Positions 722 through 28,268 are shown, counted from the first letter of the stretch. The stretch is 34,740 bases of DNA from an uncultured Acidimicrobiia bacterium (GCA_964348465.1 CAYGCW010000001.1:14336-49075), one strand, 5' to 3'. The notes: a model not told the origin generated them from the letters alone. Numbers and translations: made by a program.

Positions 722-1209
722 CAACCGCTGCGCAGCAGCTCGTCGATGCGCAGCGCGAGGCTGCGTTCGTCGATCACGCCGGTGTGCAGCGTATCGAGGT
801 CGCCTCCGGGCCGGAAGAAGAACGTCAGCGGCACCCCCCGTCCGCCGAGCGCCGCGGGCACGGCACCGGGCGGGTCGAAGAAGTGCTCGAACGCGCCGAG
901 CCGGAACTCGTCGATGAACTCCGCCGCCGCCCTCTCGGAGTCGCGCACGGCCACCGACACGAAGCGCACCCGGTCGTCGAACTCGCGGGCGGCGGCGCGG
1001 AGGAGAGGGGCCTCGGACCGGCAGGGGATGCACCACGATCCCCACACGTTGAGCACGACCGGCCGCTCGGAGGTGGCGAGCAGGACGCGCATCTGGTCGG
1101 GATCCGTGGGCGCGAGGACGGAGGGCGGGGAGCCGGCCCCGCTCCCGCCGCACGCGGCAGCCGTGATCGCAAGTGCGGCGACCGCCACCAGCAGCCGTGG
1201 GAACAGCAT
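721..1209 (-). CDS. TlpA/ResA-like thiol:disulfide oxidoreductase lipoprotein (thioredoxin fold)
   Basis: 162-aa ORF. It has a lipoprotein signal with lipobox (LAITAAAC) and a WCIPC CxxC active site in a thioredoxin-like context (VVLNVWGSWCIPCRSEAP). Third-position GC is high. Confidence 0.85.
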   Translation of the reverse strand: MLFPRLLVAVAALAITAAACGGSGAGSPPSVLAPTDPDQMRVLLATSERPVVLNVWGSWCIPCRSEAPLLRAAAREFDDRVRFVSVAVRDSERAAAEFIDEFRLGAFEHFFDPPGAVPAALGGRGVPLTFFFRPGGDLDTLHTGVIDERSLALRIDELLRSG

Positions 1210-1276
1210 CCGGCGACTCTACGGGCCGGACGGCCCAACGGGTAGGCTTCGGGCCGGTCTCCGCATCGGGGGAGCG

Positions 1277-4200
1277 ATGGGACGTGCCTGGTCCGGCCTG
1301 CTGAGGCGCCTCGGAAGCCTGGTCGATTGGGCAGCACGATGGGGCAGGCAGCTGCTGGGGGCCATCTCCTCCGTGGTCGCCCGGCGGCTCGCCGGGCTGC
1401 GCCATCGGGCGTGGCGGGTGACCCGCCGAATCGTTGGGCTGCTCGCGGCACCACCCGGGTCTGTGAGCTCGGAGGTGTGCGGCCCGCCTCCGGATCCCGC
1501 CGCCATCCGCCCGGAGTGCCGCCGCTACCCGGGCGTGGCGGCGATCGTGGTCGTCATGCTGGCCGCCTTCGTGGTTCTCCAGCAGCTCGACGCCCTTCTC
1601 GAGGGCATGCGGACCACCGGCGGCCAGGGCTACGGCATGGGACGGGCGCTCCGGGATCTGCCGGGCGCGTTCGACGCCTGGCAGGAGTGGCACGCAGGAA
1701 ACGAGCGGCTGCTGTCCCCGGGGTGGGTGGTGGGCGCGTACGTGCTCGTCGACACGTTCGCATTCGTTCCCACCGTCACCGCGTTGATCGCCTTCGTCCT
1801 GGTCACGATGGTGCGGCGCATGCGGCCCGGGTGGGCTCGCTCCGGCCCCAGGGTCGAAGCCCGCTACCGGGAGCGGCTCGCCGAGATCCGGCGTCGCAAC
1901 GCTGAGACGGTGGCCGCCAACGACGCCGCCCGGCGCGCCTTCGAAGAGGAGAGTGCGCTGCGGCCCGCCGAGGATCGGCGAGGTCCGCCGCCCGCCGTGC
2001 CGCTCATCCCCGAGCCGCCTTCACCCGACGGCCGATCCCTGGCCGCGTACACCGGGCGGTGGGCGAAGACGCTGCGCTGGACGGCGCCGTTGCTGGTGGT
2101 GTTCTTCCTGACGGACGTCGCAGAGAACCTGCTGTTCGGAATCTCCTATGCCGCAGGGTGGACGGGCCTCGGCTCTCCGATCGGAGTCCTGACCTCCGTC
2201 AAGTGGCTCTCGGTGGGCTTCCTGGCCGCAACGGTGGTCTACGTGCGGGTGGCGGCTCAGCCGGCCGAGTCCCGTCTCGACGGCCGCGGCCTGAGCGAAG
2301 ACGCCCGCGCCGTCTTCAGGGGCCTGGTGGCGATGCGGGTGCCGCTGGTCATCTTCCTCTTGGTGGCCGGAGCGCTGGCGCTGGGCCTGCTCGACCAGAT
2401 CCCGGACGCCATCCGGCGCTGGAGCGTCGTGCAGCTGGCGGCGGCCTTCTACTTCGTCGCCGGCCTCTCGGTGGCGCTGTGGATGTTCGGGCTGTGGGTG
2501 TATCGGCGGGTCACCGAGGGCTTCCGGCGTTACGAGGTGGACGCCCCTGCGGCACTCAAGCTGCGCCGCAGGGTCGGGGCGTCGTTCCTGGCGGCAGCCG
2601 CCGGCCAGACCATCGTGTGGGCGGTCCTTCCCGACCGGGTGGGCCTCGGCCTCCTCGTGCCGGCGGCGATCGTGCTTCTCTTCTTCGTGACGTCGGCGGC
2701 GCTGCCGACGCCAGACCCGCCGGAGGATCCGCCGCCGCCGCGCTGGCCGAGACGGATCATTCCGCACTTCCTGCCTCGGTTCCTGGCTGCGGCGGCCGTG
2801 GGCGCCCTGGGCCTGGCGGCGCTGAACGCCGCCATCCCGACGATGGTCGTGAAGCGAGAGCGCGCGGCCACCACCGCCGCCGTGGTCGGCGACATCATCT
2901 TGCCGGTGCTGCTCATCGTCGCAACGGTCGCCACCGGCCTCTTCGCCGTGGTGAGGTCCCTGCGGGTGGATCCGACGGCGCCGGGTCACCATCGGGCGAG
3001 CACGCAGCACGAGCGGAGGCGGGCGTTCACCGTTCTCCTCGCCCTGGCGGTCGTCCCTCCGGTGGCCCTCTGGACAGCCTGGATGACCGGCCTCGGCGAC
3101 GAACTCCGGGATCTCCCTGCCATCTCGGCCAACTGGCTGCTGCTGGCCGCCACGCTGGCGCTGGTCGCCTCGGCGGCGGCCTACTACCTCTACGACGCGG
3201 ACTACTTCCCGTTGCGGTGGGGCGGCGGCTGGTTCGCAGGCCTGAAGGAGTTCGCCTTCGACAAGTCGCGCGGCGGCCTCGATTGGTCGCGGGAGGCCAA
3301 ACAGCTCGGCTCGGTCTCGGCGGTGGTGTATCTCCTCATGGGGCTCTGGTTGGTGTGGAAGCCGCTCGCAGCGGCGCCGCTGCTGGGCACGGTGGGCGTG
3401 GCGAGCCTATGGGTGACCTCGTTCGCCGCCGTCGCTCTCGTCGCCACGATCTTCGCCGAGCGCACCCGCCCGCCCCGGCTCCTGAGCCACCTGGGGGTGA
3501 ACCGGCTCCCGGTCTTCGCGTTGCTGGCCGTCTGGGTTCTCGCTGCCCAGATTCCCGTCCTGCGGGAGCCGACCTACCACGACGTCCGGATCGCAGCCGC
3601 AGGCGACTTGGCGGCCACGGCTGCCGCCCCGTTCGACGCGCACGCCGGGCAAGTCCCGGGGCTGTGCGACGCGGCGCTGCCGTCCGGCCCCAGCCGCATC
3701 GACATGGAGGATGCTCTGTGCCGGTGGCTGGCGGCCAACGACCTGCTCGACGGCCGGCGCCGCGGCGCCGTTCCGATGGTCTTCGTATCGGCGTGGGGCG
3801 GCGGCATCAGGGCGGGGGCGTGGACCGCTTTGGCGATGGACTGCATCTTCGAGCCGGACGGCTACGTGGAGGCCCCGGCGACCGTCGACGGCACCGCGGT
3901 CGATCTCTGCCGGCGCAACGGCGCCCTGGGCGGCGACCCGTACGAGTTCAGCGACTCGCTGTTCGCCCTCTCGGGGATCTCCGGCGGCTCTCTCGGTTTC
4001 GCCGAGTACGCCGCCTACCTCAGCGGCAAGGAGCACCACGAGATCGCCCCGAAGTGGGTGCGGGCGGCCTTCGGCGCCGACTTCCTGGCTCCCACCGTCA
4101 GCCAGCTCCTCTTCGTCGACGTGCCGCTGAGTCTGTTCGGCTACGTCGACGGGCCCGACGACCGGGCCATTGTGACCGAGCGGGCCTGGGAAGCGGCGTG

Positions 4201-5146
4201 GGCCGGCTCCGGTGCCGATGGCCTGCTCAGACAGGGACTGTTCCGATCCTGGCGGGACAACCGTCACGTGCCGCTGCTGGTCCTCAACGGGACCAGTCAC
4301 ACCGATGCGTGCCGTTTCAACGCGTCGGTCCTCGACGCCGGCGTCGAGGTGGTCGTGGAGGACGACGGCGGCAAGTACATATTCGACGACTGCACGTCGC
4401 TGGACGCTTTCGAGGCGGACTACCGGCCGGCGCCGACCACGCTCGCCGTGCCGCGGGGCGCCTGGGCGCTGGCGCAGACCCGCGATCTCGTCGACTTCCT
4501 GTGCGAGGACCAGGATGTTCGGCTGTCCACGGCGGCGCTGCTCTCGGCGCGGTTTCCGGCAGTCAGCCCGCCGGGTCGGATCGACCGCTGCGCCGGGTCG
4601 GCGCTGCGGCCACCACAAGGAGAGCAGGCCTACGTGACTGATGGAGGCAACCTGGAGCTGTCGGGCACGCTGACCGCGTTTCAGCTCTGGGACGCGGTGG
4701 CGCCGATGATCGAGACGTACAACCGGCATGCGGCAGGTTCGGCGTGCATCGTGCCGTTCATGATCCACCTCGAGAACGGGTACCGGCCACCGGGTGCGCA
4801 GAGCCTCGACCCGTCCCTGCCGAACGAGTGGCTGGCGCCGGCGCGGAGCGACGCCCGGGACGGCCTCGTCAAGAATGCCCGCATCAACGCCGCGCTGCCA
4901 TTCGACGACCCGCTCGGTCTCCCCGGCGGGACCGTGACCGTGGGCGAGGACAAGCCGCGCGAGTTCCGGTACTCGGTCGACCAATACGCGTTCCTCACCA
5001 CCCGCGCCCACCCGGGGGTCCAGGCGCCGTTCGGATGGGCGCTGTCGGAGCAGGCGATCGAGGACCTGGAGAATCAGCTCCTCGAGAACGCCGCGCAGCT
5101 CGCCGAGATAGGGGCCTGGTTCTCCGGCGGCCTCAGCTGCGGCTGA
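1277..5146 (+). CDS. Large polytopic membrane protein with C-terminal patatin-like phospholipase domain
   Basis: This is the in-frame part of track ORF 281..5146. The ORF's 5' part overlaps the TlpA-like gene, so I chose the ATG at 1277 (MGRAWSGLL..), giving 1289 aa. About 770 aa carry many hydrophobic helices. These are followed by patatin blocks: GGGIRAG (3797..3817), nucleophile elbow GISGG (3974..3988), LSARFPAVSPP, and DGG-N (4640..4651). Confidence 0.7.
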   Translation: MGRAWSGLLRRLGSLVDWAARWGRQLLGAISSVVARRLAGLRHRAWRVTRRIVGLLAAPPGSVSSEVCGPPPDPAAIRPECRRYPGVAAIVVVMLAAFVVLQQLDALLEGMRTTGGQGYGMGRALRDLPGAFDAWQEWHAGNERLLSPGWVVGAYVLVDTFAFVPTVTALIAFVLVTMVRRMRPGWARSGPRVEARYRERLAEIRRRNAETVAANDAARRAFEEESALRPAEDRRGPPPAVPLIPEPPSPDGRSLAAYTGRWAKTLRWTAPLLVVFFLTDVAENLLFGISYAAGWTGLGSPIGVLTSVKWLSVGFLAATVVYVRVAAQPAESRLDGRGLSEDARAVFRGLVAMRVPLVIFLLVAGALALGLLDQIPDAIRRWSVVQLAAAFYFVAGLSVALWMFGLWVYRRVTEGFRRYEVDAPAALKLRRRVGASFLAAAAGQTIVWAVLPDRVGLGLLVPAAIVLLFFVTSAALPTPDPPEDPPPPRWPRRIIPHFLPRFLAAAAVGALGLAALNAAIPTMVVKRERAATTAAVVGDIILPVLLIVATVATGLFAVVRSLRVDPTAPGHHRASTQHERRRAFTVLLALAVVPPVALWTAWMTGLGDELRDLPAISANWLLLAATLALVASAAAYYLYDADYFPLRWGGGWFAGLKEFAFDKSRGGLDWSREAKQLGSVSAVVYLLMGLWLVWKPLAAAPLLGTVGVASLWVTSFAAVALVATIFAERTRPPRLLSHLGVNRLPVFALLAVWVLAAQIPVLREPTYHDVRIAAAGDLAATAAAPFDAHAGQVPGLCDAALPSGPSRIDMEDALCRWLAANDLLDGRRRGAVPMVFVSAWGGGIRAGAWTALAMDCIFEPDGYVEAPATVDGTAVDLCRRNGALGGDPYEFSDSLFALSGISGGSLGFAEYAAYLSGKEHHEIAPKWVRAAFGADFLAPTVSQLLFVDVPLSLFGYVDGPDDRAIVTERAWEAAWAGSGADGLLRQGLFRSWRDNRHVPLLVLNGTSHTDACRFNASVLDAGVEVVVEDDGGKYIFDDCTSLDAFEADYRPAPTTLAVPRGAWALAQTRDLVDFLCEDQDVRLSTAALLSARFPAVSPPGRIDRCAGSALRPPQGEQAYVTDGGNLELSGTLTAFQLWDAVAPMIETYNRHAAGSACIVPFMIHLENGYRPPGAQSLDPSLPNEWLAPARSDARDGLVKNARINAALPFDDPLGLPGGTVTVGEDKPREFRYSVDQYAFLTTRAHPGVQAPFGWALSEQAIEDLENQLLENAAQLAEIGAWFSGGLSCG

Positions 5147-10077: not shown

Positions 10078-10934
10078 CACGGGATCATCTGCTCGATGGC
10101 CAGCACCAGTATCCCGCTGGCGCCGGCAGCCTTCAGCTCGGGCAGCACCGCCCACAACTCGCCGGCGTCGACCACCGAATGGACGGCGACCATGCCGTCG
10201 TGGGCGAGCGGGACGACGGTCGGAGCTTCGAGGCCCGGGATGATGTGCTCGATGGCCGGGACGGCCGCGGCGGGAGCGTTCATCAGTAGGTACCGCTTGC
10301 GGCGGCCGGCCGTGACCGCCTGGAACATGGTGACGACCTGGGCGACCCCGGCGTCCCGGGCGGCGCCAGGTCGGGTGACGAGCACGGCCTGCGATTCCAG
10401 CAGGGTCGTCACCGGGCGCAGGCCGTTGACCAGCAGAGTGCTGCCGCTGGACACCAGGTCCACGATGGCGTCGGCCAAGCCCAGCTTGGGCGCCACCTCC
10501 ACCGAGCCGCGCAGCGGCACGAGCGTGACGTCGACGCCCTTGCGGGCGAAGAAGCCCGCCGTAGCGTTGGGATGGGCGGTGGCGACCCGCAGCCCGGCCA
10601 GGTCCTCGATGCTTGCAGCCGCCGACGACTTGGGGACCGCCGCCACCAACCGGCACCTACCGAACCCGAGCTCGGCGGTGGTCTCGAGGTCGAGGCCGGC
10701 CTCCTCGAGGAGATCGACGCCGGTGATGCCCAGGGCGGCGGCCCCGTCGGCGACGATCTCGTCGACGTCCTCGGTGCGGACGAACAGCAGTTCCAGGCTG
10801 ACGTTGGCCACCGGCACGGTCAGCGCGCGGTCGGTCTTCTCGAACCGCAGCCCGGCGTCGCGTAGCATCGCCAGCGTCGGCTCCTGGAGGCGGCCCTTGT
10901 TGGGGACAGCGAGGCGAAGCGCCGGACCGCTCAC
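10077..10934 (-). CDS. hisG: ATP phosphoribosyltransferase, long form with C-terminal regulatory domain
   Basis: 285 aa from GTG 10934 (VSGPALRLAVPNKGRL..). It contains DLVSSGSTL, and the length fits long-form HisG. GTGA overlap with the upstream regulator stop. Confidence 0.9.
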   Translation of the reverse strand: MSGPALRLAVPNKGRLQEPTLAMLRDAGLRFEKTDRALTVPVANVSLELLFVRTEDVDEIVADGAAALGITGVDLLEEAGLDLETTAELGFGRCRLVAAVPKSSAAASIEDLAGLRVATAHPNATAGFFARKGVDVTLVPLRGSVEVAPKLGLADAIVDLVSSGSTLLVNGLRPVTTLLESQAVLVTRPGAARDAGVAQVVTMFQAVTAGRRKRYLLMNAPAAAVPAIEHIIPGLEAPTVVPLAHDGMVAVHSVVDAGELWAVLPELKAAGASGILVLAIEQMIP

Positions 10935-11248
10935 GACTCCTCCTCGGGGATGAGCCCGAGCCGGTCGAGCAGCAGGCGGTACCCGCCGGTGCCGTGCTGC
11001 AGCCACTGGTTGATCCGGGTGACGGTTGCCGTGGACGAGCCGGCCTCCTTGGCGATCTCGCGGTACGGGAGACCTCGTGCGAGGAGCCGGGCCACGGCCC
11101 AGCGGTGCGCGAACTCGTCCAGCTCGCGCAGCGTGCACAGGTCGCGGAAGAATGCTTCGGCCTCCTCCTGCGTTTCCAACGCCAGGATCGCCTCGAACAG
11201 GGCGTCGGTGTCTTCGTTGGTCCAGTCTTCGGTTGCGGCCGTCGTCAT
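10931..11248 (-). CDS. yerC: YerC/YecD-family TrpR-like DNA-binding protein, first gene of the his operon
   Basis: 105 aa. LFEAILAL.T.EEA..FF.DLCT..EL...A.RW.VA.LL..G..YREIA...G.STATVTRIN..L..G.GGY matches B. subtilis YerC nearly block for block from memory. The helix-turn-helix is STATVTRIN. Confidence 0.85.
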   Translation of the reverse strand: MTTAATEDWTNEDTDALFEAILALETQEEAEAFFRDLCTLRELDEFAHRWAVARLLARGLPYREIAKEAGSSTATVTRINQWLQHGTGGYRLLLDRLGLIPEEES

Positions 11249-14612: not shown

Positions 14613-15362
14613 GTGTCCGAGATCATCACCGAGCCGGGCGTGTTCGAGGTCATGTACGGCTGCCGCGCCATGCGCCGGTTGAGCCCGCGTCCGGTGCCCG
14701 ACGAGGTGCTGGTTCGGCTCGTCGAAGCGGGAACGAGGGCCCCCTCGGCCGGCAACGCTCAGAACTGGCGGTTCGTGATCGTCCGGGATCGTGACCGGTT
14801 GGCCGAGATGGCGGGCCCCTGGCGGCGCGGCATCCGCCTCATGCAGGACGTCGCGGCGCGGGCGCCAGCCCGCCCCGGGGAGGACCTCGAAGCTCGTCGC
14901 CGGACGATGCGTGCGGTGGCCTACCTGGCGGAGAACTTCGAGAGCACTCCTGCCGTGATCGGCGTATGCGTGCAGCGCGATGCCGCGGCCGAGGCGGAAG
15001 CTCGCCGTCCGGCGACGCTGCGGTCGGCGATCCGGCATCTGGGATTGTGGGGAACCCTGCGCATGAGCCGGCACGGGCGCCGCAACGCTGAGCGGGAGCT
15101 GCTGGCCAATGCCTACACCGCAGCCCAGAACGTCCTGCTGGCGGCGCGCGCCTCCGGTCTGGGCGCCGTGCTCACGATGCCGCAGGTGCTGGCGCCGCCG
15201 GGGACGTACGAGACGATCCTCGGCCTGCCCGCCGACGTGATCCTGGCCGCGCTCATACCGATCGGTTACCCCCTCGGCGAGTTCGGCCCGGTGGCGCGCG
15301 CCCCGGTCGAGCATTACCTGAGCTGGGACCGCTACGCCCCGGCGCCGGCGCGATCCACCTAG
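14613..15362 (+). CDS. Nitroreductase-family oxidoreductase
   Basis: 249 aa from GTG 14613, with GGAGG 6 nt upstream, inside track ORF 14520..15362. Nitroreductase N-terminal signature is R.MRRL....VP.E.L..L.EA...APSAGN.Q.WRF..V. Confidence 0.8.
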   Translation: MSEIITEPGVFEVMYGCRAMRRLSPRPVPDEVLVRLVEAGTRAPSAGNAQNWRFVIVRDRDRLAEMAGPWRRGIRLMQDVAARAPARPGEDLEARRRTMRAVAYLAENFESTPAVIGVCVQRDAAAEAEARRPATLRSAIRHLGLWGTLRMSRHGRRNAERELLANAYTAAQNVLLAARASGLGAVLTMPQVLAPPGTYETILGLPADVILAALIPIGYPLGEFGPVARAPVEHYLSWDRYAPAPARST

Positions 15363-15432
15363 CGCACGGAGCGGACAGCGATCCGTCGAGTCGGACGGCG
15401 TCCCCCGGAATCGTCGCGCCGCGCCGGCGCCG

Positions 15433-15897
15433 CTATCCGGGCGAGCCCGGGTACCGGTGAGCGGCCGGCAGATCTCGGGTGAGATCGCAGCGGTACCACG
15501 CCGCCGGCCGGTGGGGATGGCCGGTCGTGGCCCAGAAGTCGGCTTCGAACTCGCGCGGCACGTCGTCGATGGTGATCTCGACGTGTGACTTCCCGGCGCC
15601 GGGATCGCCGAGGACCACCACCGGCGACCCGGCGACGGCCAGCATCGCCCGATCCAGCAGCGCCTGGTCCTCATCGCCCTGAGCGGTGACCACGTAGCGA
15701 AGCGTCACTCGTTCGCCGTCGCGGCCTCGATCGCCGCCGGTCGTCGGCCACTCGACGCTGTACAGGTAGACGCTCACCCAGCGGCCCGGCTCGTCGGGCA
15801 GCAGCTCGGGCGTGACCCCGGCGTGGATCCCGGCGGCCGCCAGCTTCCCGCCGATCGTGGCGAGCAGGGCTTCGGTCACGTCTTCGATCCCGGTCAT
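15433..15897 (-). CDS. DUF4255 / Pvc16_N-like protein (Afp16-type tail-tube terminator homologue), short form
   Basis: 154 aa from ATG 15897 (MTGIEDVTEALLATIGGKL..), with ATGA overlap to the tube gene stop. DUF4255-like blocks are VSVYLYSVEW, VTLRYVVTA and FWATTGHPHRPAAWYRCDL. Confidence 0.7.
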   Translation of the reverse strand: MTGIEDVTEALLATIGGKLAAAGIHAGVTPELLPDEPGRWVSVYLYSVEWPTTGGDRGRDGERVTLRYVVTAQGDEDQALLDRAMLAVAGSPVVVLGDPGAGKSHVEITIDDVPREFEADFWATTGHPHRPAAWYRCDLTRDLPAAHRYPGSPG

Positions 15898-16394
15898 GAC
15901 TCCTCCGGCTCCGTTACCGACATGTCCCGCTCCCATCCCTCGTGCTCGAGTTTGATGGACTGAATCGCCACCGCGTTCCCCCCGGCATCGAGGTCGGGGA
16001 GCGCCTGGTACTCCGACACCCAGGCACGACGCACCAGGTAGCGCAGCACGGTCTGGCCCTGGAGGTTCAACAGCTCGATGGCGATGTCCTTCCGGTAATT
16101 CTTGAGCGAGCCGGGCTCACCGGTGCTCGGGTCGAATGCGAGACGGGCCCACTCCTCGAAGACCGGGTCGTGCGTGACGCCGCGCTCCAGCGTGATCGGC
16201 TCGAACCTGGTCGGGCCGGGGGCGGTGCGGTTGGCGGCGGGCTCCGTACCGGTCCGGTATTCGACGGCTTCGGTCATCCGGCGGAGCGCTGACACGTGGG
16301 ATACCCCGGCGACGACCTCGCCGTCGATGATCACCCTGAACCTGCAATTGCGGTACGGGTCGCGGCGGTGGGTATTCACGACGAAGTCGGCCAC
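15894..16394 (-). CDS. Phage T4 gp19 / Afp1-type tail tube protein homologue
   Basis: 166 aa with a GTG start, preceded by GGGGGA. Blocks are YRNCRFRVIIDGEVVAGVSHVSAL....EAVEYRTG......RTAPGPTRFEPITLERGVTHD..FEEW, then RKDIAIELLN.QGQ...RY.VRRAWVSEY.ALPDLDA.GN.VAIQSIKLEHEGWE. This is the pattern of contractile-tail or eCIS tube proteins. Confidence 0.8.
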   Translation of the reverse strand: MADFVVNTHRRDPYRNCRFRVIIDGEVVAGVSHVSALRRMTEAVEYRTGTEPAANRTAPGPTRFEPITLERGVTHDPVFEEWARLAFDPSTGEPGSLKNYRKDIAIELLNLQGQTVLRYLVRRAWVSEYQALPDLDAGGNAVAIQSIKLEHEGWERDMSVTEPEES

Positions 16395-16424
16395 GTTTCC
16401 CCCAATCGTCTGCTGGGTGCAACT

Positions 16425-17171
16425 CTATCGGTCCGGCCGGGCCGCGTAGAGGGCGACGGCCACCGCCGTGGCCAGGTTGAGGCTCGACACACCCGGTCGC
16501 ATCGGGATCGCCACGCGCCGGGCGGCTCGCGCGAGCAGGGCCGGGCTGAGGCCCCGGCGCTCGGACCCGAACGCCAGCACAGCGCGCTCCGGTACCGGGT
16601 CGCGGTCGAACCGCGCGCCTCGCGGGTCGAGGGCCACGATCGGTCGGTCGGTGGCGGCCAGCTCGCCGATGGCTGCGACCGGCACTGCGAAGTGGAGCCC
16701 GGCGGCGCCGCGCACGGCGTTGGGGTGCCACGGGTCGAGTGGTCCGGTGCTCAGCACCCCCGCCGCCGTGGCGGCCGCCGCCACCCGGACGGTGGCGCCG
16801 ACGTTGCCATGGTGAGTGGGGGCCTCCAGCAGCACCACCGGCGCCGGGCCGGGGTCGGCGAGCACCGCAGCCGGGTCGACGGCGGGACGCTCGGCGATGG
16901 CCAGCACTCCGGTGGCCGGCGGGGATGGGGCGAGCCGGGCGAAGACCTCGGGCGCCACGCCGGAGAGGAGCGCCGCGAGCCGTTCGGCCAGGTCGGGCGC
17001 CAGCTCGGCGGCCAGGCCGGCCGGCCCGGTCGGGTCGGCCGCGACCGCCAGCCGGACCACTGCGCCGAAGCGGACGGCGTGCTTGAGAGCGTGGAAGCCT
17101 TCCAGGACGACCAGGCCGGGGTCCGAGCGAGCCGCGGCGAATTCGGCGGGCAGATCCTGCGCGCCCGTCAC
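16425..17171 (-). CDS. SpoU/TrmH-family (SPOUT) RNA 2'-O-methyltransferase
   Basis: 248 aa from GTG 17171, with GTGA overlap to the AAA+ gene stop. All three SPOUT knot motifs are intact: LLEAPTHHGNVGATVRVAAA, LAFGSERRGLS and VAIPMRPGVSSLNLATAVAVALY. Confidence 0.85.
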   Translation of the reverse strand: MTGAQDLPAEFAAARSDPGLVVLEGFHALKHAVRFGAVVRLAVAADPTGPAGLAAELAPDLAERLAALLSGVAPEVFARLAPSPPATGVLAIAERPAVDPAAVLADPGPAPVVLLEAPTHHGNVGATVRVAAAATAAGVLSTGPLDPWHPNAVRGAAGLHFAVPVAAIGELAATDRPIVALDPRGARFDRDPVPERAVLAFGSERRGLSPALLARAARRVAIPMRPGVSSLNLATAVAVALYAARPDR

Positions 17172-19159
17172 CCCTGGCTCGCGTACCGGGCCACGGCGGC
17201 CTCGAAGTCGGCCTTGGTCACCTCGATGGCGCTCGGATCTCGCCGCAGGGCGTTGAGCGCGGCTTCCCGCAGGGCCCCGGTGAGGTCGGCGAAGGAGAGG
17301 CCCGCGGTCTCCTCCGCAACCTCGTCGAGGTCCACGTCCGCGGCGAACGGCACGTCGGTGATGCCGAGGAGCGCCCGGCGGGCTTCGACTGCGGGCAGTC
17401 CCAGCTCCAGGTGCACCTCGAAGCGTCCGGCCCGGAGGAGCGCAGGATCGATGAGGTCGCGGCGGTTGGTGGCGCCGATGATCACGATGTCGCCGCGATC
17501 GGCGACGCCGTCCATCTCCGTCAGCAGCGCCGCCACCACCGAGTCGGTGACCGAAGTCGTGGAACGACCGCGCACCGGAGCGAGCGCGTCCAGTTCGTCG
17601 AAGAACAGGATCGCCGGCGCGGCCGCCCGCGCCCTGGCGAATACCTCCCGCACGCCCCGCTCCGACTCGCCGACGAACTTGTCGAGGAGTTCGGCGCCCT
17701 TCACTGCGAAGAACGCCGCTCCGGACTCGTGGGCCAGAGCCCTGATCACGAACGTCTTGCCGGTGCCGGGCGGGCCGTGGAGGAGGATGCCGCGGGGCGG
17801 GTCGATGCCGAGCCGCTCGAAGCGCCCCGGGTCCGTCATCGGCCAGATCACCGCCTCGGTGAGCCGCTGCTTCACGTCGTCCAGGTTCGCCACCCGCTCG
17901 AATCCGTACGAGGGCACTTCCCCGAGCTGAACCGTCCCCAGCGAAGGCACCGTCTCCTCGACGGCCCTCAGCAGCAGCTCCTGGCCGACGTGGCCGCCGG
18001 AATGAGCGACCAGCGCCGAGGCGTGAACGACCGCCGCCAGGATGTCGGCTCCCGAGAAGCCGGCGGTACGGGCCGCCAGCAGCGCGTAGTCGACCTCGCC
18101 GATGGGGACCCTGGCCAGCGCCGCCTCGAAAAGCAACCCTCGCCGCTCGCCGTCGGGCGGCGGGATCGACAGATGGCGGGGCACCAGCGGCGACGACGTG
18201 ATCGACCGGTCGAGCGCCCCCAGCGACGAGACCCCGAGGACGCAGGCGAGGCGGGGCTTCTCGGCGACGGCGTCGAGGAACCAGCGCAGGATGGCGCCGA
18301 CCTGGGCCCGGAACATGCCCTCTTCCCCGGCCACGGCCTCGAGGCGGTCGACGAAGATCACCCCAGGAGTGGAGGTGGTCTTGAGCGCGCCGTCGAGCAC
18401 GTCGATGAGACGCTCCGGCTTGAACACCAGCCCGAGCGACACTTCCTTGACGGTGGCACCGGCCCCGGAGGCGGCGGCCGCCACCAGCTCCGACTTGCCG
18501 CACCCTGCCGGGCCCTCCATCAGGACCCCGGCGACCGCCGGCAAGCCCCATGCCTTGGGCAGATCGCGGGGCGACGTCAGCAGCGCCAGCCAGCCGGTGA
18601 GCATCTCCAGTTCGTCGTCGAGCCCTGCCAGCAGCGCCTCGGCCTGCGTCGGCGCCACCCGGGCCGGCCGGCCGGGGGCGACTGCTGCCGGCGGCGCCGG
18701 CGCCGTGTCGCCCGGGGCCGACACCACGGTGGCGCTGCCGACCAGCCCGGCCGGGCCGGGCACGACCTCGAGCACCCGCAGCCGCACCGGCCCGTCACCC
18801 TCGCCCACATAGGCCGGGTCGAACTCGACGTGGTCGCCGGGCGTCACCGCCCGGCCCTGGAGAGCCCTGGCCAGGGACTGGGCGTCGGCCGGCAGTTCCT
18901 CGCAGTCGAGCACGATCCGATGCGCCTGGGGAACCATGGCCCGCTTGGCTTCGACCACGTCGCCGTCGCCGACGGCGGCGTTGGCCATCGTCAGCGGTCC
19001 CAGGGTCACGGCGGTGGGTTGGGGCACCTCGCCCGGGTGGACCACAACGTGGGTGCGGCCGATGCTGATCGTTCCGCCCCCGGGCAGGCCCATCGCCGCC
19101 AGCAACGTGGCGTCGGCGCGGGCAAAGGGGTCGAAGCCGGGACGGACGGTGAAGCGCAT
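17168..19159 (-). CDS. Cdc48/VAT-like double-ring AAA+ ATPase (N-D1-D2; Afp15/Pvc15-like or Cpa-like)
   Basis: 663 aa. The N-terminal ~145 aa look like a CDC48_N double-psi barrel (GLPGGGTISIGRTHVVVHPG..VTLGPLTMANAAVGDGDVVE). D1 has Walker A GPAGCGKS (18491..18514) and a degenerate Walker B VIFVDRLE (18338..18361). D2 has Walker A GPPGTGKT (17753..17776), Walker B ILFFDELD (17588..17611), sensor GATN and Arg finger ALLRAGRF. Confidence 0.88.
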   Translation of the reverse strand: MRFTVRPGFDPFARADATLLAAMGLPGGGTISIGRTHVVVHPGEVPQPTAVTLGPLTMANAAVGDGDVVEAKRAMVPQAHRIVLDCEELPADAQSLARALQGRAVTPGDHVEFDPAYVGEGDGPVRLRVLEVVPGPAGLVGSATVVSAPGDTAPAPPAAVAPGRPARVAPTQAEALLAGLDDELEMLTGWLALLTSPRDLPKAWGLPAVAGVLMEGPAGCGKSELVAAAASGAGATVKEVSLGLVFKPERLIDVLDGALKTTSTPGVIFVDRLEAVAGEEGMFRAQVGAILRWFLDAVAEKPRLACVLGVSSLGALDRSITSSPLVPRHLSIPPPDGERRGLLFEAALARVPIGEVDYALLAARTAGFSGADILAAVVHASALVAHSGGHVGQELLLRAVEETVPSLGTVQLGEVPSYGFERVANLDDVKQRLTEAVIWPMTDPGRFERLGIDPPRGILLHGPPGTGKTFVIRALAHESGAAFFAVKGAELLDKFVGESERGVREVFARARAAAPAILFFDELDALAPVRGRSTTSVTDSVVAALLTEMDGVADRGDIVIIGATNRRDLIDPALLRAGRFEVHLELGLPAVEARRALLGITDVPFAADVDLDEVAEETAGLSFADLTGALREAALNALRRDPSAIEVTKADFEAAVARYASQG

Positions 19160-19252
19160 CGCACCGGCGAGGCTACCCCCACCGAGGCCGGAGGGCGCCG
19201 CCCCGTGCGCACGTCCGGGGGACTGCCCTCCAGGCTCCGGCGGGGCGAGGTG

Positions 19253-20734
19253 TCACGACGCGGCCGGGGGTTCCTCGAGATCGAGATTCTGGGCCTTGAA
19301 GTTGCCCTTGCCGCGCTTACCGTTGATCGCCTCGGTGTTCATGCCGTAGGTGAGCACGGCGGCCGCCACGGCGTCCGAGTTGACGTCGAGCGCCTGCAGG
19401 CTGACGTTGCCCAACGTGTCGCACGCCAGGTGGTAGCAGGGGTCGTACTGTGCTCCGGAGGTGCCTCCCCACGTCGCCGCCTCCGCCGCGGTCTTGATCC
19501 CTTCTGCGCCTGTGAACAGGCCGCCGGCAGGGATGCCGACCTCGATGAACGGTCCGTAGTCGGAGCGACCGGAGAGGTCCGTGCCCTTGAAGGGCAGGCC
19601 GCGAGCGGCGTAGAACGCCTCGAACAGCTTCTCGATGTCGGCCGAACCGGCCGGGCCCGGGCCGGCGCCCACGGCATCGGAGTCGTCGCCGTCGAGGATG
19701 AAGTACACGAAGTTGGGCGAGCCAATCATGTCGAAGTTCAGGTACAGCGCGATCTTGTCACGCTCGGCCTGGCTCAGGTTGGCCACGTAGTGCCGCGAGC
19801 CGACGAGCCCCGACTCCTCGGCGCCCCACCACGCGAAGCGGACCTTGTTCTTCGGCCTCACCTTGGCCATCTGCTCTGCAACCTCCAAGATCGCCGCGCT
19901 CCCCGAACCGTTGTCCTGGATGCCGGGGCCCTGGTTGACCGAGTCGAGATGGGCGCCGGCCATCACGACGTTGGTGGGATCGCCCGCGGTCGATTCGGCG
20001 ATCACGTTGGACGTGGTGGCGATGCCGCGGAAGGTGTCGGTCTCGAGGCGCATGATCAAGCCCGGGGTGGCCGCCAGCTGCTCGCCGAGGTCCTTGGTGA
20101 CGGACGTGACGCCGATGTCCAGAGTGAAGGTGCTGGTCAAGGTGCCGTTGAGCGTGCCCGGGATGTTGTTGTAGATCACCACCCCCGACGCTCCGGCGTT
20201 GAAGGCGTTGGTGGCCTTCGTCGCGAACGTGCACGTCCCGCGGCTGATCAGCGCGATGTTCCCTGCGGGAAAGCCGGCGAAGTCGGCCGGCGAACAGCCC
20301 CGACTGTCGGAAACGGTGCTCACCGGTGCGGTCACGTCGCCGCTTCCCGAGTACTGCATGATGTTGTTGACGAGCGGCCCGGCGGGCGGTGGCGCCACCT
20401 GCTCCAGAACGGCCGGGGTCAGCGAGATGAACGTCTGGAACTGGAACTCCTGCACGGTCACCTGGTACCCGGCCGCCTCCAGCCGCTCTTTCACGTAGGC
20501 CGCCGACCGGTCGTAGCCGACGGTGCCCGACGTGCGGATCCCGTTGCTGGCGTCGGCGATGGCCTGGAACGCCGCCTGGTGCTCGCGCACCCCCTCGATC
20601 GTGACGCATTCGAGAAGCTTGGCAATGGTGTTGTTGACCCTGGTGTCGCAGGCCGCCGGCCCGGCGCTGGCCACTGCCGGGAGGCTCGCCACGACGAACA
20701 CGACGACGAAGAACGCAGCCCTCGCTCTGCGCAT
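19253..20734 (-). CDS. Secreted M28-family aminopeptidase with PA domain
   Basis: 493 aa from ATG 20734 (MRRARAAFFVVVFVVASLPAVASA signal), inside track ORF 19253..20848. M28 metal-ligand blocks are AGAHLDSV, DNGSGSAAILE, WWGAEESGLVGS and NFDMIGS. A PA-like insert is present (NIALISRGTCTF..K..NA.NAGASGVVIYNN). Confidence 0.85.
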   Translation of the reverse strand: MRRARAAFFVVVFVVASLPAVASAGPAACDTRVNNTIAKLLECVTIEGVREHQAAFQAIADASNGIRTSGTVGYDRSAAYVKERLEAAGYQVTVQEFQFQTFISLTPAVLEQVAPPPAGPLVNNIMQYSGSGDVTAPVSTVSDSRGCSPADFAGFPAGNIALISRGTCTFATKATNAFNAGASGVVIYNNIPGTLNGTLTSTFTLDIGVTSVTKDLGEQLAATPGLIMRLETDTFRGIATTSNVIAESTAGDPTNVVMAGAHLDSVNQGPGIQDNGSGSAAILEVAEQMAKVRPKNKVRFAWWGAEESGLVGSRHYVANLSQAERDKIALYLNFDMIGSPNFVYFILDGDDSDAVGAGPGPAGSADIEKLFEAFYAARGLPFKGTDLSGRSDYGPFIEVGIPAGGLFTGAEGIKTAAEAATWGGTSGAQYDPCYHLACDTLGNVSLQALDVNSDAVAAAVLTYGMNTEAINGKRGKGNFKAQNLDLEEPPAAS

Positions 20735-20873
20735 GAGTAAGACCCCCTCGCTCGAACGAACCTGATTGCCGCAGAAAGTAGCGGTAACGGCCCGTCCCGA
20801 ACGGTTCCGAGTTTTCGCGTTTCTCTCCGGCGCCGGAGGGCGCCGCAACGGTACGGCGGGCGCAACCGGCCGG

Positions 20874-22499
<1,626 letters not shown>

Positions 22500-26590: not shown

Positions 26591-27475
26591 TCAAGCCGCC
26601 GCGGCGGCGAACAGAATGTCGGCGACTTCCGCCGGGAACGATTCGCCGACGCCGATGAACACTGCGTAGACGGTGCAGTCGTCGATCAGCGTGGCGGCGA
26701 TGTCGATCAGGATCGAGAAGTCCGCCAGCGCCAACGTGAACCGAACGGCGACTTCGGCCCCGGCGATGTCGATCACCTCGACTGCGAACGTCACCCCGTC
26801 GGTGCCTTCGTTCTCGATCGCCTCGGACACCGTGGCGGCCAGGCAATCTCGGCCTTCGGGAGTGCCGAGCACCTTCTGCAACACCGCAAAGGCGTCGCCG
26901 GCGATCTCCCGGCTCTGGAACACGCGAGCCTCGATCGTGGCGTTGGCGGGCCCGAGCACCCCGCTCCCCGGAGGTCCTTCCACGTCGACCTCGGAGGTGG
27001 CCAAGCTGAACGCGTCGAGATTGTCGAGATCGAAGTCGTCCTCGTCGAGACAGGGCGAGAAGACGATGGCGTCGCCCGTGCCGGTGTCCGCGACCAGCGT
27101 CCCTTTCCAACCCTCCGGTACGGCGGCCAGCAGGGCTTCCGCCTTGGCCTCGGCCACCCCCGCGGCACCGGGCTCCCCGCCGGAGGTGGTCGTGGTCGTC
27201 GGCGGCTGGGTGGTGGTAGAAGAAGTGGTCGGCGGCGTTGTGGTGGTGGTCGGCGGCTGCGTGGTGGTGGTCGGCGGGTGGGTGGTGGTCGGGGCCGCCA
27301 CGGTGGTGGCCGGACTCGTATCCGGCGGCGGCACGATCGACGTGCCATCCCGGGGCGCGGTGGTCGTGGTCGCCTCCCCGGAGTCGCCGCAGGCGGTGCT
27401 CAGCAAGCAGAGCGCCAGCAGTGCGGCGGCGACGCGGGCCGGGGGTGGGATAGGCATGGGGACGACTCTACGCAT
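26591..27475 (-). CDS. Hypothetical lipoprotein with long Thr/Pro linker
   Basis: 294 aa with lipobox CLLSTAC. About 60 aa of (P)PTTTT repeats precede a ~190-aa acidic domain with no homology I recognise. An alternative start is ATG 27457 (MPIPPP..). Confidence 0.7.
   Translation of the reverse strand: MRRVVPMPIPPPARVAAALLALCLLSTACGDSGEATTTTAPRDGTSIVPPPDTSPATTVAAPTTTHPPTTTTQPPTTTTTPPTTSSTTTQPPTTTTTSGGEPGAAGVAEAKAEALLAAVPEGWKGTLVADTGTGDAIVFSPCLDEDDFDLDNLDAFSLATSEVDVEGPPGSGVLGPANATIEARVFQSREIAGDAFAVLQKVLGTPEGRDCLAATVSEAIENEGTDGVTFAVEVIDIAGAEVAVRFTLALADFSILIDIAATLIDDCTVYAVFIGVGESFPAEVADILFAAAAA
27182..27373 (-). repeat. Coding low-complexity Thr/Pro repeat (GGTGGTGGTCGGCGG-type units on the + strand)
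   Basis: Imperfect ~15-nt units encode PPTTTT(T/Q) inside the lipoprotein linker. Confidence 0.8.
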
Positions 27476-28268
27476 CGCGCCCGGCGGCTCGGGGATTGCG
27501 CTGCCGGACGGCTTCGAACAACAGGAGAGCGGCAGCCACCGACGCGTTGAGACTGGCCACCGGCCCTGGGGTGGGGATCACGACGGTCCGCTCCGGATCG
27601 GCGAGCCAACCTGGCGACAACCCGGACTGCTCACTGCCGACGACGACCGCCGCGGCCGCGGTCAGGTCGGCGTCCCAGTACGGCCGGCGCCCGTGAACGG
27701 ACGCGGCGTGCCACCCGACGCCGGCCTCGTCGAGGAAGGACCTCACGGAAGTGGGCGCGGCGACGGCGACGGGCAGCAGGAACAGCGCCCCGAGCGACGC
27801 GCGCACCACGTTCGGGTTGAACACGTCGGCGACCGGGTTCGCCACGACCACTCCGCCGGCGCCGGCGGCGGCCGCGGTGCGCAGCATCGCGCCCAAGTTG
27901 CCGGGTTTCTCGACGGCCTCCGCCACGAGCAGCAGCGGTGCTCCGGCGAGCGCGATCCGGTCGAGGCCGAGCGGGAACTGGCGCGCCACCGCCAGCACCC
28001 CCGTCGCGGCATCCCGGTACGACGCTTTCGCGAAGGCAGCCTCGCTCATCTCGAAGCCGGCGGTCTCCGTCTCGGCGGCCGCGGCGGCGCCGGCCGTTCC
28101 CGAGTAGTAGACCTCCGCGATCTCGATCCCGCCGGCGACCGCCCGCGCCAGCTCCCGCTCGCCTTCGATGACGAATGAGCCGGTGTCGTCCCGCTCCCGG
28201 CGGCTGGTGCGCAGCCGTACCAAAGCCTTGACACGCGGATTGGCCGGCGACGAGATCGGAGCGCTCAC
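27468..28268 (-). CDS. SpoU/TrmH-family RNA methyltransferase (second copy in the window)
   Basis: 266 aa from GTG 28268, with GTGA overlap to the TPM gene stop. N-terminal NPRVKALVRLR....R...G.FVIEGERE is present. SPOUT motifs are AVEKPGNLGAMLRTAAAAG, VVVGSEQSGLS and VVIPTPGPVASLNASVAAALLLFE. Confidence 0.85.
   Translation of the reverse strand: MSAPISSPANPRVKALVRLRTSRRERDDTGSFVIEGERELARAVAGGIEIAEVYYSGTAGAAAAAETETAGFEMSEAAFAKASYRDAATGVLAVARQFPLGLDRIALAGAPLLLVAEAVEKPGNLGAMLRTAAAAGAGGVVVANPVADVFNPNVVRASLGALFLLPVAVAAPTSVRSFLDEAGVGWHAASVHGRRPYWDADLTAAAAVVVGSEQSGLSPGWLADPERTVVIPTPGPVASLNASVAAALLLFEAVRQRNPRAAGRDA

What the first reader, a model, noticed from the sequence alone, without database searches (positions are those of the whole stretch)
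15433..19159. Stand-alone operon of CIS ATPase, SPOUT methyltransferase, tail-tube protein and DUF4255 terminator, with no sheath, spike, baseplate or tape measure nearby
Four same-strand genes sit at the centre of the window:
- a Cdc48-like N-D1-D2 AAA+ ATPase (17168..19159);
- a SpoU/TrmH methyltransferase (16425..17171), whose start overlaps the ATPase stop (GTGA);
- a 166-aa T4 gp19/Afp1-type tube protein (15894..16394), 30 nt downstream with its own RBS;
- a 154-aa DUF4255/Pvc16_N protein (15433..15897), whose start overlaps the tube stop (ATGA).

In described contractile injection systems (Afp, PVC, Streptomyces CIS), the Afp15-type ATPase, Afp1/5 tube and Afp16 terminator are encoded together with sheath, VgrG/PAAR spike, gp25/gp6/gp7-like baseplate and tape-measure genes. 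I recognise none of those in the ~15 kb on either side. The flanks are nitroreductase, MMPL and his genes on one side, and M28 peptidase and exonuclease on the other.

All four ORFs are intact and tightly coupled, and their codon style matches the neighbours. There is no integrase, tRNA or border repeat. This argues against a decaying prophage or eCIS fragment.

Possible readings are a tube-only capped assembly with an unfoldase/loader and an RNA methyltransferase as cargo or effector, or a host decoy that interferes with phage tail assembly. A less interesting alternative is that the ATPase is simply the housekeeping actinobacterial Cdc48-like protein (Cpa) and the tube/terminator pair is an unrelated neighbour.
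Basis: partly seen in the sequence, partly recalled or inferred. Interest (0 to 1): 0.88.

Follow-up and report, generated by a model that had tools for sequence, protein, structure and literature searches.

The report
Orphan injection-system tube and cap genes
Two genes left over from a phage-tail-like injection machine (its inner tube and a shortened tube cap) sit, still under selection, among ordinary housekeeping genes of an Acidimicrobiia bacterium; the neighbouring ATPase and RNA methyltransferase are resident genes, not parts of the machine.

Summary
The four minus-strand ORFs, their overlaps and their domain calls are real, and nothing else in the 34.7-kb window resembles a CIS gene. 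The four-gene "CIS operon" reading does not hold.

- **ATPase:** it is a Cdc48-family N-D1-D2 protein. Orthologues of 55-81% identity occur in eight other Acidimicrobiia MAGs, none with a SPOUT, tube or cap gene nearby. It matches eCIS ATPases only generically (~31-35% over the AAA core).
- **SPOUT:** it belongs to a very common actinobacterial TrmH family (60-68% identity, thousands of members). Two members examined lie in contexts without a tube.
- **Tube and cap:** only these two genes are eCIS-derived. The tube is 57-64% identical to tubes that sit directly after a sheath gene in 64 of 66 assessable canonical loci. It keeps 54 of 56 near-invariant family residues.
- **Cap:** it is a 154-aa DUF4255 N-domain without the sheath-binding part.
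- **Conservation:** a 903-bp contig from a diverged relative keeps SPOUT-tube-cap with the same spacing. Tube identity is 77% and dN/dS about 0.3.
- **Other orphans:** orphan tubes recur independently in other lineages.

Verdict: a rare, selected orphan tube-cap pair. Its function is unknown, and a complete eCIS elsewhere in the genome could not be excluded. Moderate interest.

The parts
15894..16394 (-). eCIS-type inner tube protein (Afp1/Pvc1/Cis1-like), 166 aa, an orphan copy
   Evidence: Pfam Phage_T4_gp19 scores 135 bits and TIGR02241 scores 138 bits. The AF2 model (pLDDT 77) best matches AlgoCIS, Anabaena CIS, PVC, AFP and Streptomyces CIS tubes with probability 1.0. It is 57-64% identical to tubes of canonical sheath-tube loci. 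It keeps 54 of 56 near-invariant family columns. dN/dS against L108 is 0.31.
15433..15897 (-). Short tube-cap protein with only the DUF4255/Pvc16 N-domain, 154 aa; its start overlaps the tube stop (ATGA)
   Evidence: Pfam Pvc16_N scores 25.7 bits, below the cut-off of 27, over profile 2-169/180. hhalign against 16 canonical caps gives E 1e-4 with motifs in register. The fold search puts CIS and phage tail caps on top. Solved CIS caps are 192-295 aa, so this one lacks the stretch after the YRPS..Y motif. Exhaustive phmmer finds no relative other than itself. GC3 is 0.88.
16395..16424 (-). 30-nt spacer between SPOUT and tube, carrying a GGGGG ribosome-binding site
   Evidence: The length is the same, and the AGTTG...TTGGGGG elements are shared, in the relative L108.
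16425..17171 (-). TrmH/SpoU-family RNA methyltransferase: a resident-type gene and conserved upstream neighbour of the tube, not a CIS part
   Evidence: Pfam SpoU_methylase scores 91 bits. There are 7445 homologues below E 1e-10, the best listed ones 60-68% identical and mostly actinobacterial. Contexts L109-L111 have no tube. The N-terminus and motifs align with homologues. The C-terminal 90 aa are about 60% identical in L108, directly upstream of its tube.
17168..19159 (-). Cdc48-family N-D1-D2 AAA+ ATPase (Cpa/VAT-like): a resident chromosomal gene and probable operon neighbour only
   Evidence: PDB matches are VAT at 1e-127 and Msm0858 (5e7p), co-linear over residues 19-654. Orthologues of 55-81% identity occur in 8 Acidimicrobiia MAGs without SPOUT, tube or cap. 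D1 Walker B reads D-R instead of D-E, while the D2 motifs are intact (read from the translation).

Best explanation
The eCIS-derived feature is a two-gene module: an inner-tube gene and a truncated cap gene. It was left behind by, or split from, an Afp/PVC-type extracellular contractile injection system. It now sits in a variable stretch of an Acidimicrobiia chromosome, downstream of two resident genes: a Cdc48-family ATPase and a TrmH-family RNA methyltransferase.

**Shown:**
- The ancestry of the two genes.
- The absence of every other CIS gene from the window.
- The resident status of the ATPase and the housekeeping character of the SPOUT family.
- Persistence of SPOUT-tube-cap, with unchanged spacing, in a diverged relative.
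- Purifying selection on the tube.

**Inferred mechanism:** the tube protein still forms Hcp-like hexameric rings, or short stacks of rings. The 154-aa cap, which keeps the tube-binding N-domain but not the sheath-handshake part, closes one face. Without sheath, baseplate or spike, the pair cannot contract or inject. It would act as a small capped ring or tube, for example as a chaperone or container. All four genes are probably co-transcribed simply because they are packed on one strand.
For: **Ancestry**
- The tube is 57-64% identical to tubes of canonical loci ordered sheath-tube-tube2-..-Pvc16-AAA-..-gpD-baseV-gp25.
- 64 of 66 assessable metagenome loci have a sheath gene directly upstream of the tube.
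- The tube fold matches solved eCIS tubes.
- The cap is called by Pfam, hhalign and fold search.

**Isolation**
- No other eCIS gene is found in the window.
- The tube family is almost absent from viral contigs.

**ATPase is resident**
- Eight orthologous loci lack SPOUT, tube and cap genes.
- L008 and L010 place the ATPase directly against the hisA-like gene. L007 has OsmC, sortase and sigma-factor genes there instead.

**SPOUT is housekeeping**.

**Conservation and selection**
- L108 keeps SPOUT, the 30-nt spacer, a 77%-identical tube and the ATGA overlap into the cap.
- Tube dN/dS is 0.31. That lies inside the 0.08-0.38 range of 252 canonical pairs with high GC3 and similar identity.
- 54 of 56 near-invariant tube residues are kept.

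**Cap domain logic**
- In PVC, the Pvc16 N-domain binds two tube subunits. The middle strand and the C-domain bind the sheath (bioRxiv 10.1101/2025.04.20.649488).
- Solved caps are 192 aa or longer.

**Orphan tubes recur elsewhere:** L002/L003, L114 and L033/L062.
Against: - The source genome could not be scanned, so a complete eCIS elsewhere that uses these two genes is not excluded.
- The cap call rests on sub-threshold or low-confidence evidence.
- The cap has no detectable relative by phmmer.
- Its first 33 codons give dN/dS of about 1.2 against L108 (a tiny sample), so the cap may be decaying.
- Tube polymerisation normally needs a baseplate initiator. Autonomous assembly is pure inference.
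- Only two lineages carry this arrangement, among 5.8 billion protein clusters searched.
- The upstream end of L108 is missing, so a link to the ATPase in that relative is untested.
Confidence: 0.6

Rival explanations
1. Split locus. The genome carries a complete or nearly complete eCIS elsewhere. This tube and cap are spare or specialised parts that assemble with it in trans, as orphan hcp genes do with T6SS clusters.
For: The tube keeps 54 of 56 family-invariant residues, and its dN/dS lies within the canonical range, as expected if it still meets the full set of partners. eCIS loci are common in Actinobacteria (PMC6899500).
Against: The cap lacks the sheath-binding part. The tube is among the most divergent of the 120 listed homologues. 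There is no CIS gene in 34.7 kb. This could not be tested further: the source MAG is not in the genome collection and its contig could not be retrieved.
Confidence: 0.2
2. Decaying relic. The pair is a non-functional remnant of a deleted eCIS locus that has not yet accumulated disabling mutations.
For: The cap is truncated and has no detectable relative. Its N-terminal dN/dS is about 1.2. The tube evolves roughly 1.5 times faster than the canonical median. Orphan tubes elsewhere are also unusually divergent.
Against: The tube ORF is intact in two lineages separated by dS of about 0.6, with dN/dS 0.31. The RBS, spacer length and start/stop overlap are conserved. Codon usage is fully native. There are no pseudogene scars: the intergenic gaps are 30 and 70 nt.
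Confidence: 0.12
3. The four genes form one functional CIS-derived system: the AAA+ ATPase loads or unfolds substrates into a sheath-less capped tube, and the SPOUT methyltransferase is cargo or effector. A variant is a decoy that poisons phage tail assembly.
For: The genes are packed on one strand with overlapping stop and start codons, and no terminator-like sites were found. SPOUT-tube-cap is conserved in L108. A different mini-cassette, a tube plus a 263-aa eCIS-type AAA, exists in L033/L062, so tube-ATPase pairs can persist.
Against: The ATPase is orthologous to genes in eight relatives that have no SPOUT, tube or cap gene nearby, and it is not of the eCIS ATPase type. SPOUT belongs to a mass housekeeping family found without tubes. 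There is no PADLOC hit for the tube, cap or SPOUT. The tube model matches phage tail-tube structures at only about 13-18% sequence identity, which makes co-assembly with phage tails unlikely.
Confidence: 0.07

Closest known systems
Extracellular contractile injection systems (Afp, PVC, AlgoCIS, Streptomyces CIS): tube Afp1/Pvc1/Cis1 and cap Afp16/Pvc16
   Same: The tube belongs to the same Pfam/TIGRFAM family and has the same fold as these tubes. It is 57-64% identical to tubes inside complete loci. The cap shares the DUF4255 N-domain that binds the last tube ring.
   Different: There is no sheath, VgrG/PAAR spike, gp25/gp6 baseplate, tape measure or eCIS-type ATPase in 34.7 kb. The cap is 154 aa, against 192-295 aa in solved systems, and lacks the sheath handshake part. 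Published eCIS censuses would not list this locus: one requires at least 4 linked CIS genes and the other an Afp11 homologue (PMC8213781, PMC6899500).
Orphan hcp genes of type VI secretion systems (from general knowledge)
   Same: A tube-fold protein is encoded away from the main machine. Hcp rings also serve as chaperones for small proteins.
   Different: Orphan Hcp works with a T6SS present elsewhere in the genome. Here no partner machine is known, and a cap gene travels with the tube.
Cpa / Msm0858 (Rv0435c), the Cdc48-like protein of actinobacteria (PMC6017811)
   Same: The window ATPase has the N-D1-D2 layout and is co-linear with the 5e7p structure over residues 19-654. D1 is degenerate and the D2 motifs are intact, as described for Cpa.
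   Different: Its score is higher to archaeal VAT than to Msm0858 (430 against 288 bits). Clade membership and co-occurrence with the proteasome were not tested.
TrmH/SpoU (SPOUT) RNA 2'-O-methyltransferases
   Same: The SpoU_methylase domain and its motifs are conserved, with 60-68% identity to a large actinobacterial family.
   Different: No equivalog model reaches its cut-off, so the RNA target is unknown. Adjacency to a tube gene was seen only here and in L108.

Membership tests
eCIS locus (Afp/PVC type) | Afp1/5-type inner tube gene | tested here: met
   Pfam 135 bits and TIGR02241 138 bits; the fold matches eCIS tubes.
eCIS locus (Afp/PVC type) | Sheath gene (Afp2/3/4) adjacent to the tube | tested here: not met
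   No sheath match in the window. SPOUT occupies the position that a sheath gene holds in 64 of 66 related loci.
eCIS locus (Afp/PVC type) | Baseplate and spike genes (Afp7, Afp8/VgrG, Afp9/gp25, Afp11) | tested here: not met
   No Pfam or tblastn match anywhere in the 34.7-kb window. The rest of the genome was not available.
eCIS locus (Afp/PVC type) | Afp15/Pvc15-type AAA ATPase | tested here: not met
   The window ATPase is Cdc48-type with Acidimicrobiia orthologues that lack CIS neighbours. It shares only about 31-35% identity over 160-190 aa with the eCIS ATPases of this tube family, and it has no WHD domain.
eCIS locus (Afp/PVC type) | Afp16/Pvc16 cap with a tube-binding N-domain plus a sheath-binding part | tested here: inconclusive
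   The N-domain is supported. The sheath-binding part appears absent: 154 aa against at least 192 aa.
DUF4255 / Pvc16_N (PF14065) | Score at or above Pfam's gathering threshold | tested here: not met
   25.7 bits against 27. It is rescued only by hhalign (E 1e-4, probability 57%) and by fold matches from a model of pLDDT 63.
Cdc48 family / actinobacterial Cpa | N-domain plus two AAA modules, with D2 carrying Walker A/B, sensor Asn and Arg finger | tested here: met
   Two AAA stretches and a weak CDC48_2 hit. Co-linear with 5e7p. The motifs were read from the sequence. TIGR01243 scores below its cut-off (312 against 803 bits).
Cdc48 family / actinobacterial Cpa | Placement in the Cpa clade and co-occurrence with prcAB proteasome genes | not tested
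   No phylogeny with Cpa references was made, and the genome was not available.
SpoU/TrmH methyltransferase (PF00588) | SpoU_methylase domain above threshold with conserved motifs | tested here: met
   91 bits against a cut-off of 29.7. 44 columns are invariant across the 8 aligned sequences (the window SPOUT, six homologues and the window's second SpoU paralogue).
Prophage or tailocin remnant | Integrase, tRNA target, border repeats, other phage genes, and relatives in phage collections | tested here: not met
   No tRNA genes, no border repeats, no phage genes in the flanks, and only two distant hits in IMG/VR.
Known anti-phage defence systems (PADLOC) | Match of the tube, cap or SPOUT to a defence-system model | tested here: not met
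   No hits for these three. The ATPase gives only generic AAA matches to IetA and TRIP13.

The most novel reading that the evidence does not exclude
A sheath-less, baseplate-less tube-plus-cap module has been exapted from an eCIS for an intracellular role. It would form an Hcp-like capped ring or short tube that holds or chaperones a client, possibly handed over by the co-transcribed Cdc48-like unfoldase.
Probability: 0.2. Interest if true: 0.7.

Novelty: new variant of a known kind. Interest (0 to 1): 0.3.

Why it matters
eCIS surveys define loci by many linked core genes, so isolated parts are invisible to them. If orphan tube genes, some with a cap or an ATPase, are repeatedly kept under selection outside any injection machine, the tube fold would have a second life in bacteria, as Hcp does as a chaperone. 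Such minimal modules could also be simple self-assembling containers for engineering. If the pair instead serves a distant eCIS, it documents split eCIS loci in Acidimicrobiia, a class with almost no studied cell biology. Either way, the case warns against reading a nearby AAA+ ATPase as a CIS component without checking its orthologues.

Tried and rejected
- **Cap homologue searches.** The word-indexed search found only a truncated copy of the protein itself. Exhaustive phmmer over 1.84 billion representatives found that copy plus two repetitive proteins that look eukaryotic by eye; their multi-stretch matches I regard as spurious.
- **Reaching the rest of the source contig or genome.** Exact-protein look-ups of the ATPase and of a gene near the window's right end were not on record. 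Cluster look-up gave no accession or organism name. The genome collection does not hold the source genome; the best ATPase match is 81%. The split-locus test could therefore not be run.
- **A single clade of orphan tubes.** This was rejected. The window tube and P0002 group in 100% of bootstraps, but adding P0005 and/or P0011 gets only 1.5-29%.
- **Promoter and terminator scan** of 15000-21000: nothing found, which is uninformative in a genome of 72% GC.
- **PADLOC and PHROGs:** no defence-system membership, and only generic tail-tube families.
- **Viral contigs:** two distant tube hits and no cap hit.
- **Border repeats and tRNA genes:** none of note.
- **SPOUT as imported cargo.** This was rejected because of its close similarity to a mass housekeeping family, whose two examined members lie in ordinary contexts.

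Full report
**1.

| Gene | Coordinates | Length |
|---|---|---|
| ATPase | 17168-19159 | 663 aa |
| SPOUT | 16425-17171 | 248 aa |
| Tube | 15894-16394 | 166 aa |
| DUF4255-like | 15433-15897 | 154 aa |

The junctions are as described. The ATPase stop overlaps the SPOUT start (GTGA). A 30-nt spacer with a GGGGG ribosome-binding site precedes the tube start. The tube stop overlaps the cap start (ATGA), behind GGAGGAG.

Pfam gives:
- two AAA stretches, AAA_lid_3 and a weak CDC48_2 hit for the ATPase;
- SpoU_methylase at 91 bits;
- Phage_T4_gp19 at 135 bits;
- Pvc16_N at 25.7 bits, just below its cut-off of 27 but spanning profile positions 2-169 of 180.

GC3 is 0.88-0.91 in all four genes and in their neighbours. 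There are no tRNA genes and no border repeats.

The flanks are a his operon, a hisA-like gene, MMPL, nitroreductase, M28 peptidase, an exonuclease-GIY protein, PGA_cap, DUF3160, a second SpoU methylase and others. tblastn with every gene of two complete eCIS loci finds only the tube, plus a generic AAA match.

**2. The tube is a genuine eCIS tube that has lost its locus**

The tube has more than 8000 homologues.

- Homologues of 62% identity on long contigs lie in complete loci ordered sheath-tube-tube2-..-Pvc16-AAA-..-gpD-baseV-gp25.
- A metagenome scan returned 79 loci from other organisms. In 64 of the 66 with enough upstream sequence, a sheath gene sits directly before the tube. None has a SPOUT gene or a window-like cap.
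- An AF2 model built on 43 homologues (pLDDT 77) best matches the tubes of AlgoCIS, the Anabaena CIS, PVC, AFP and the Streptomyces CIS.
- The window protein keeps 54 of the 56 columns that are at least 95% conserved among 115 homologues.
- The family is almost absent from IMG/VR: two hits at 44-49%. It is an eCIS lineage, not a phage lineage.

**3. The cap is a minimal DUF4255 N-domain**

Sequence searches find no relative other than itself. Three independent weak tests nevertheless agree:
- the Pfam hit;
- hhalign against 16 canonical Pvc16 N-domains, at E 1e-4, with the LNLFxY..LITA.G.., LW and YRPS..Y motifs in order and the invariant Trp and Tyr kept;
- a single-sequence model (pLDDT 63) whose best PDB matches are the PVC cap, the lambda tail cap, the Streptomyces CIS cap, the monocin cap, the pyocin collar and the T5 terminator.

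In PVC, the Pvc16 N-domain binds two tube subunits. A middle beta-strand and the C-domain dock onto the sheath (bioRxiv 10.1101/2025.04.20.649488). Solved CIS caps are 192-295 aa. The window protein ends 15 residues after the YRPS..Y-equivalent motif, so it appears to keep the tube-binding part and to lack the sheath-binding part. That fits a sheath-less context, but it is an inference.

**4. The ATPase is a resident gene, not a CIS ATPase**

- It matches archaeal VAT and p97 (E 1e-127). It is co-linear, N-domain included, with the Msm0858/Cpa structure 5e7p.
- Cpa is described as N-D1-D2 with a mildly degenerate D1 and a strictly conserved D2 (PMC6017811). Here the D1 Walker B reads D-R, and D2 is intact.
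- A scan of species-representative genomes found eight Acidimicrobiia loci with orthologues of 55-81% identity. None has SPOUT, tube or cap genes within the flanks retrieved.
- In L008 and L010 the ATPase abuts the hisA-like gene. In the window that gene lies 5 kb away, beyond SPOUT, tube, cap, nitroreductase, a small ORF and MMPL.
- In L007 (81% identity) the downstream genes are OsmC, sortase, DUF4397 and a sigma factor.
- The backbone is therefore exonuclease-GIY / ATPase / ... / hisA-like, with variable filling.
- The eCIS ATPases that accompany this tube family share only about 31-35% identity over the AAA core.

**5. SPOUT is a housekeeping-type gene**

It has 7445 homologues below E 1e-10, and the best listed ones are 60-68% identical. 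Many are labelled Solirubrobacterales or are unnamed actinobacterial MAG proteins. Two long-contig contexts show no tube. The N-terminus and motifs align well, which supports the GTG start that overlaps the ATPase stop.

**6. The trio SPOUT-tube-cap is nevertheless inherited as a unit**

The only close tube relative in 5.8 billion protein clusters is P0002, at 77% identity. It lies on a 903-bp contig (L108) that shows:
- the last 90 residues of a SPOUT protein, about 60% identical;
- the same 30-nt spacer;
- the tube;
- an overlapping start of a cap-like ORF (33 residues, about 36% identical).

| Comparison with L108 | dN/dS | Note |
|---|---|---|
| Tube | 0.31 | dS 0.63 |
| SPOUT tail | 0.30 | |
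| Cap, first 33 codons | about 1.2 | too few codons to weigh |

For 252 canonical tube pairs of similar identity and high GC3, the median is 0.20 and the range 0.08-0.38. The tube is therefore under purifying selection, perhaps somewhat relaxed.

**7. Orphan tubes recur elsewhere**

- L002/L003: a tube whose stop overlaps an M20 peptidase gene, with no CIS gene within 10 kb.
- L114: a lone tube among metabolic genes.
- L033/L062: a tube followed by a 263-aa eCIS-type AAA, in housekeeping flanks that differ between the two contigs.

These orphans do not form one clade with the window tube; bootstrap support is 29% or less. The confirmed orphans are among the most divergent of the 120 listed homologues, although that list is biased towards the query.

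**8. Interpretation**

The best-supported account is an orphan eCIS tube-cap pair embedded among resident genes and kept by selection. I infer that it forms Hcp-like rings or short stacks closed by the N-domain-only cap. It cannot contract or inject.

Rivals:
- **Split locus.** These genes serve a complete eCIS elsewhere in the genome. This could not be tested because the source genome could not be reached.
- **Dead relic.** This is unlikely for the tube and possible for the cap.
This is disfavoured by the orthology of the ATPase, the ubiquity of the SPOUT family, and the absence of PADLOC matches for the tube, cap and SPOUT.

**9. Novelty and score**

No described system consists of a CIS tube and cap alone. 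Published eCIS censuses exclude such partial loci by design (PMC8213781, PMC6899500). The arrangement is known from only two lineages, has no functional data, and may simply be a satellite of a distant locus. I rate it a new variant of a known kind, of moderate interest (0.3).

Noticed in passing
window 914-5146 (+): A 1410-aa multi-pass membrane protein with no Pfam, NCBIfam or PADLOC match. Its C-terminal soluble part carries patatin-like phospholipase motifs read by eye (WGGGIRAG ... GISGGSLG ... DGGN).
   Followed up: partly
L033 4271-5237 and L062 573-1883: A different mini-cassette in organisms of about 0.57 GC: an eCIS-type tube directly followed by a 263-aa single-domain eCIS-type AAA with intact Walker motifs. 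There is no sheath upstream. The two contigs share 85% nucleotide identity over about 1 kb, but their flanks are unrelated housekeeping genes.
   Followed up: partly
L002 10001-11637 (also L003) and L114 10001-10501: Further orphan tube genes, 66% and 64% identical to the window tube, with no CIS gene within 10 kb on either side. In L002 the tube stop overlaps the start of an M20 peptidase gene. In L114 the tube sits alone between an alcohol dehydrogenase gene and an MFS transporter gene.
   Followed up: partly
window 10931-11248 (-): A TrpR-family repressor gene (Pfam Trp_repressor, E 1e-24) sits at the head of the hisG-hisD-hisC-hisB-hisH operon. An ORF of similar size (107 aa, not compared by sequence) occupies the same position in the related locus L010.
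   Followed up: no
window 27468-28268 (-): A second SpoU methyltransferase in the window. It is RlmB-like, has an MRM3-like substrate-binding domain, and is only 34% identical to the SPOUT next to the tube.
   Followed up: no
window 19253-20734 (-): The M28 peptidase gene between the exonuclease-GIY gene and the ATPase has no tblastn match in the two related loci that show the exonuclease-GIY/ATPase junction (L007, L009; a 0.6-kb gap in L009 was not examined). Both sides of the ATPase therefore appear to be variable insertion points in this lineage.
   Followed up: partly
L053 7466-8029 and L071 12735-13316: Short (188 and 194 aa) Pvc16-type caps occur inside otherwise canonical sheath-bearing loci, matching the 192-197 aa caps of several solved CIS. 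Cap length alone therefore does not indicate a sheath-less system; the window cap is shorter still.
   Followed up: partly
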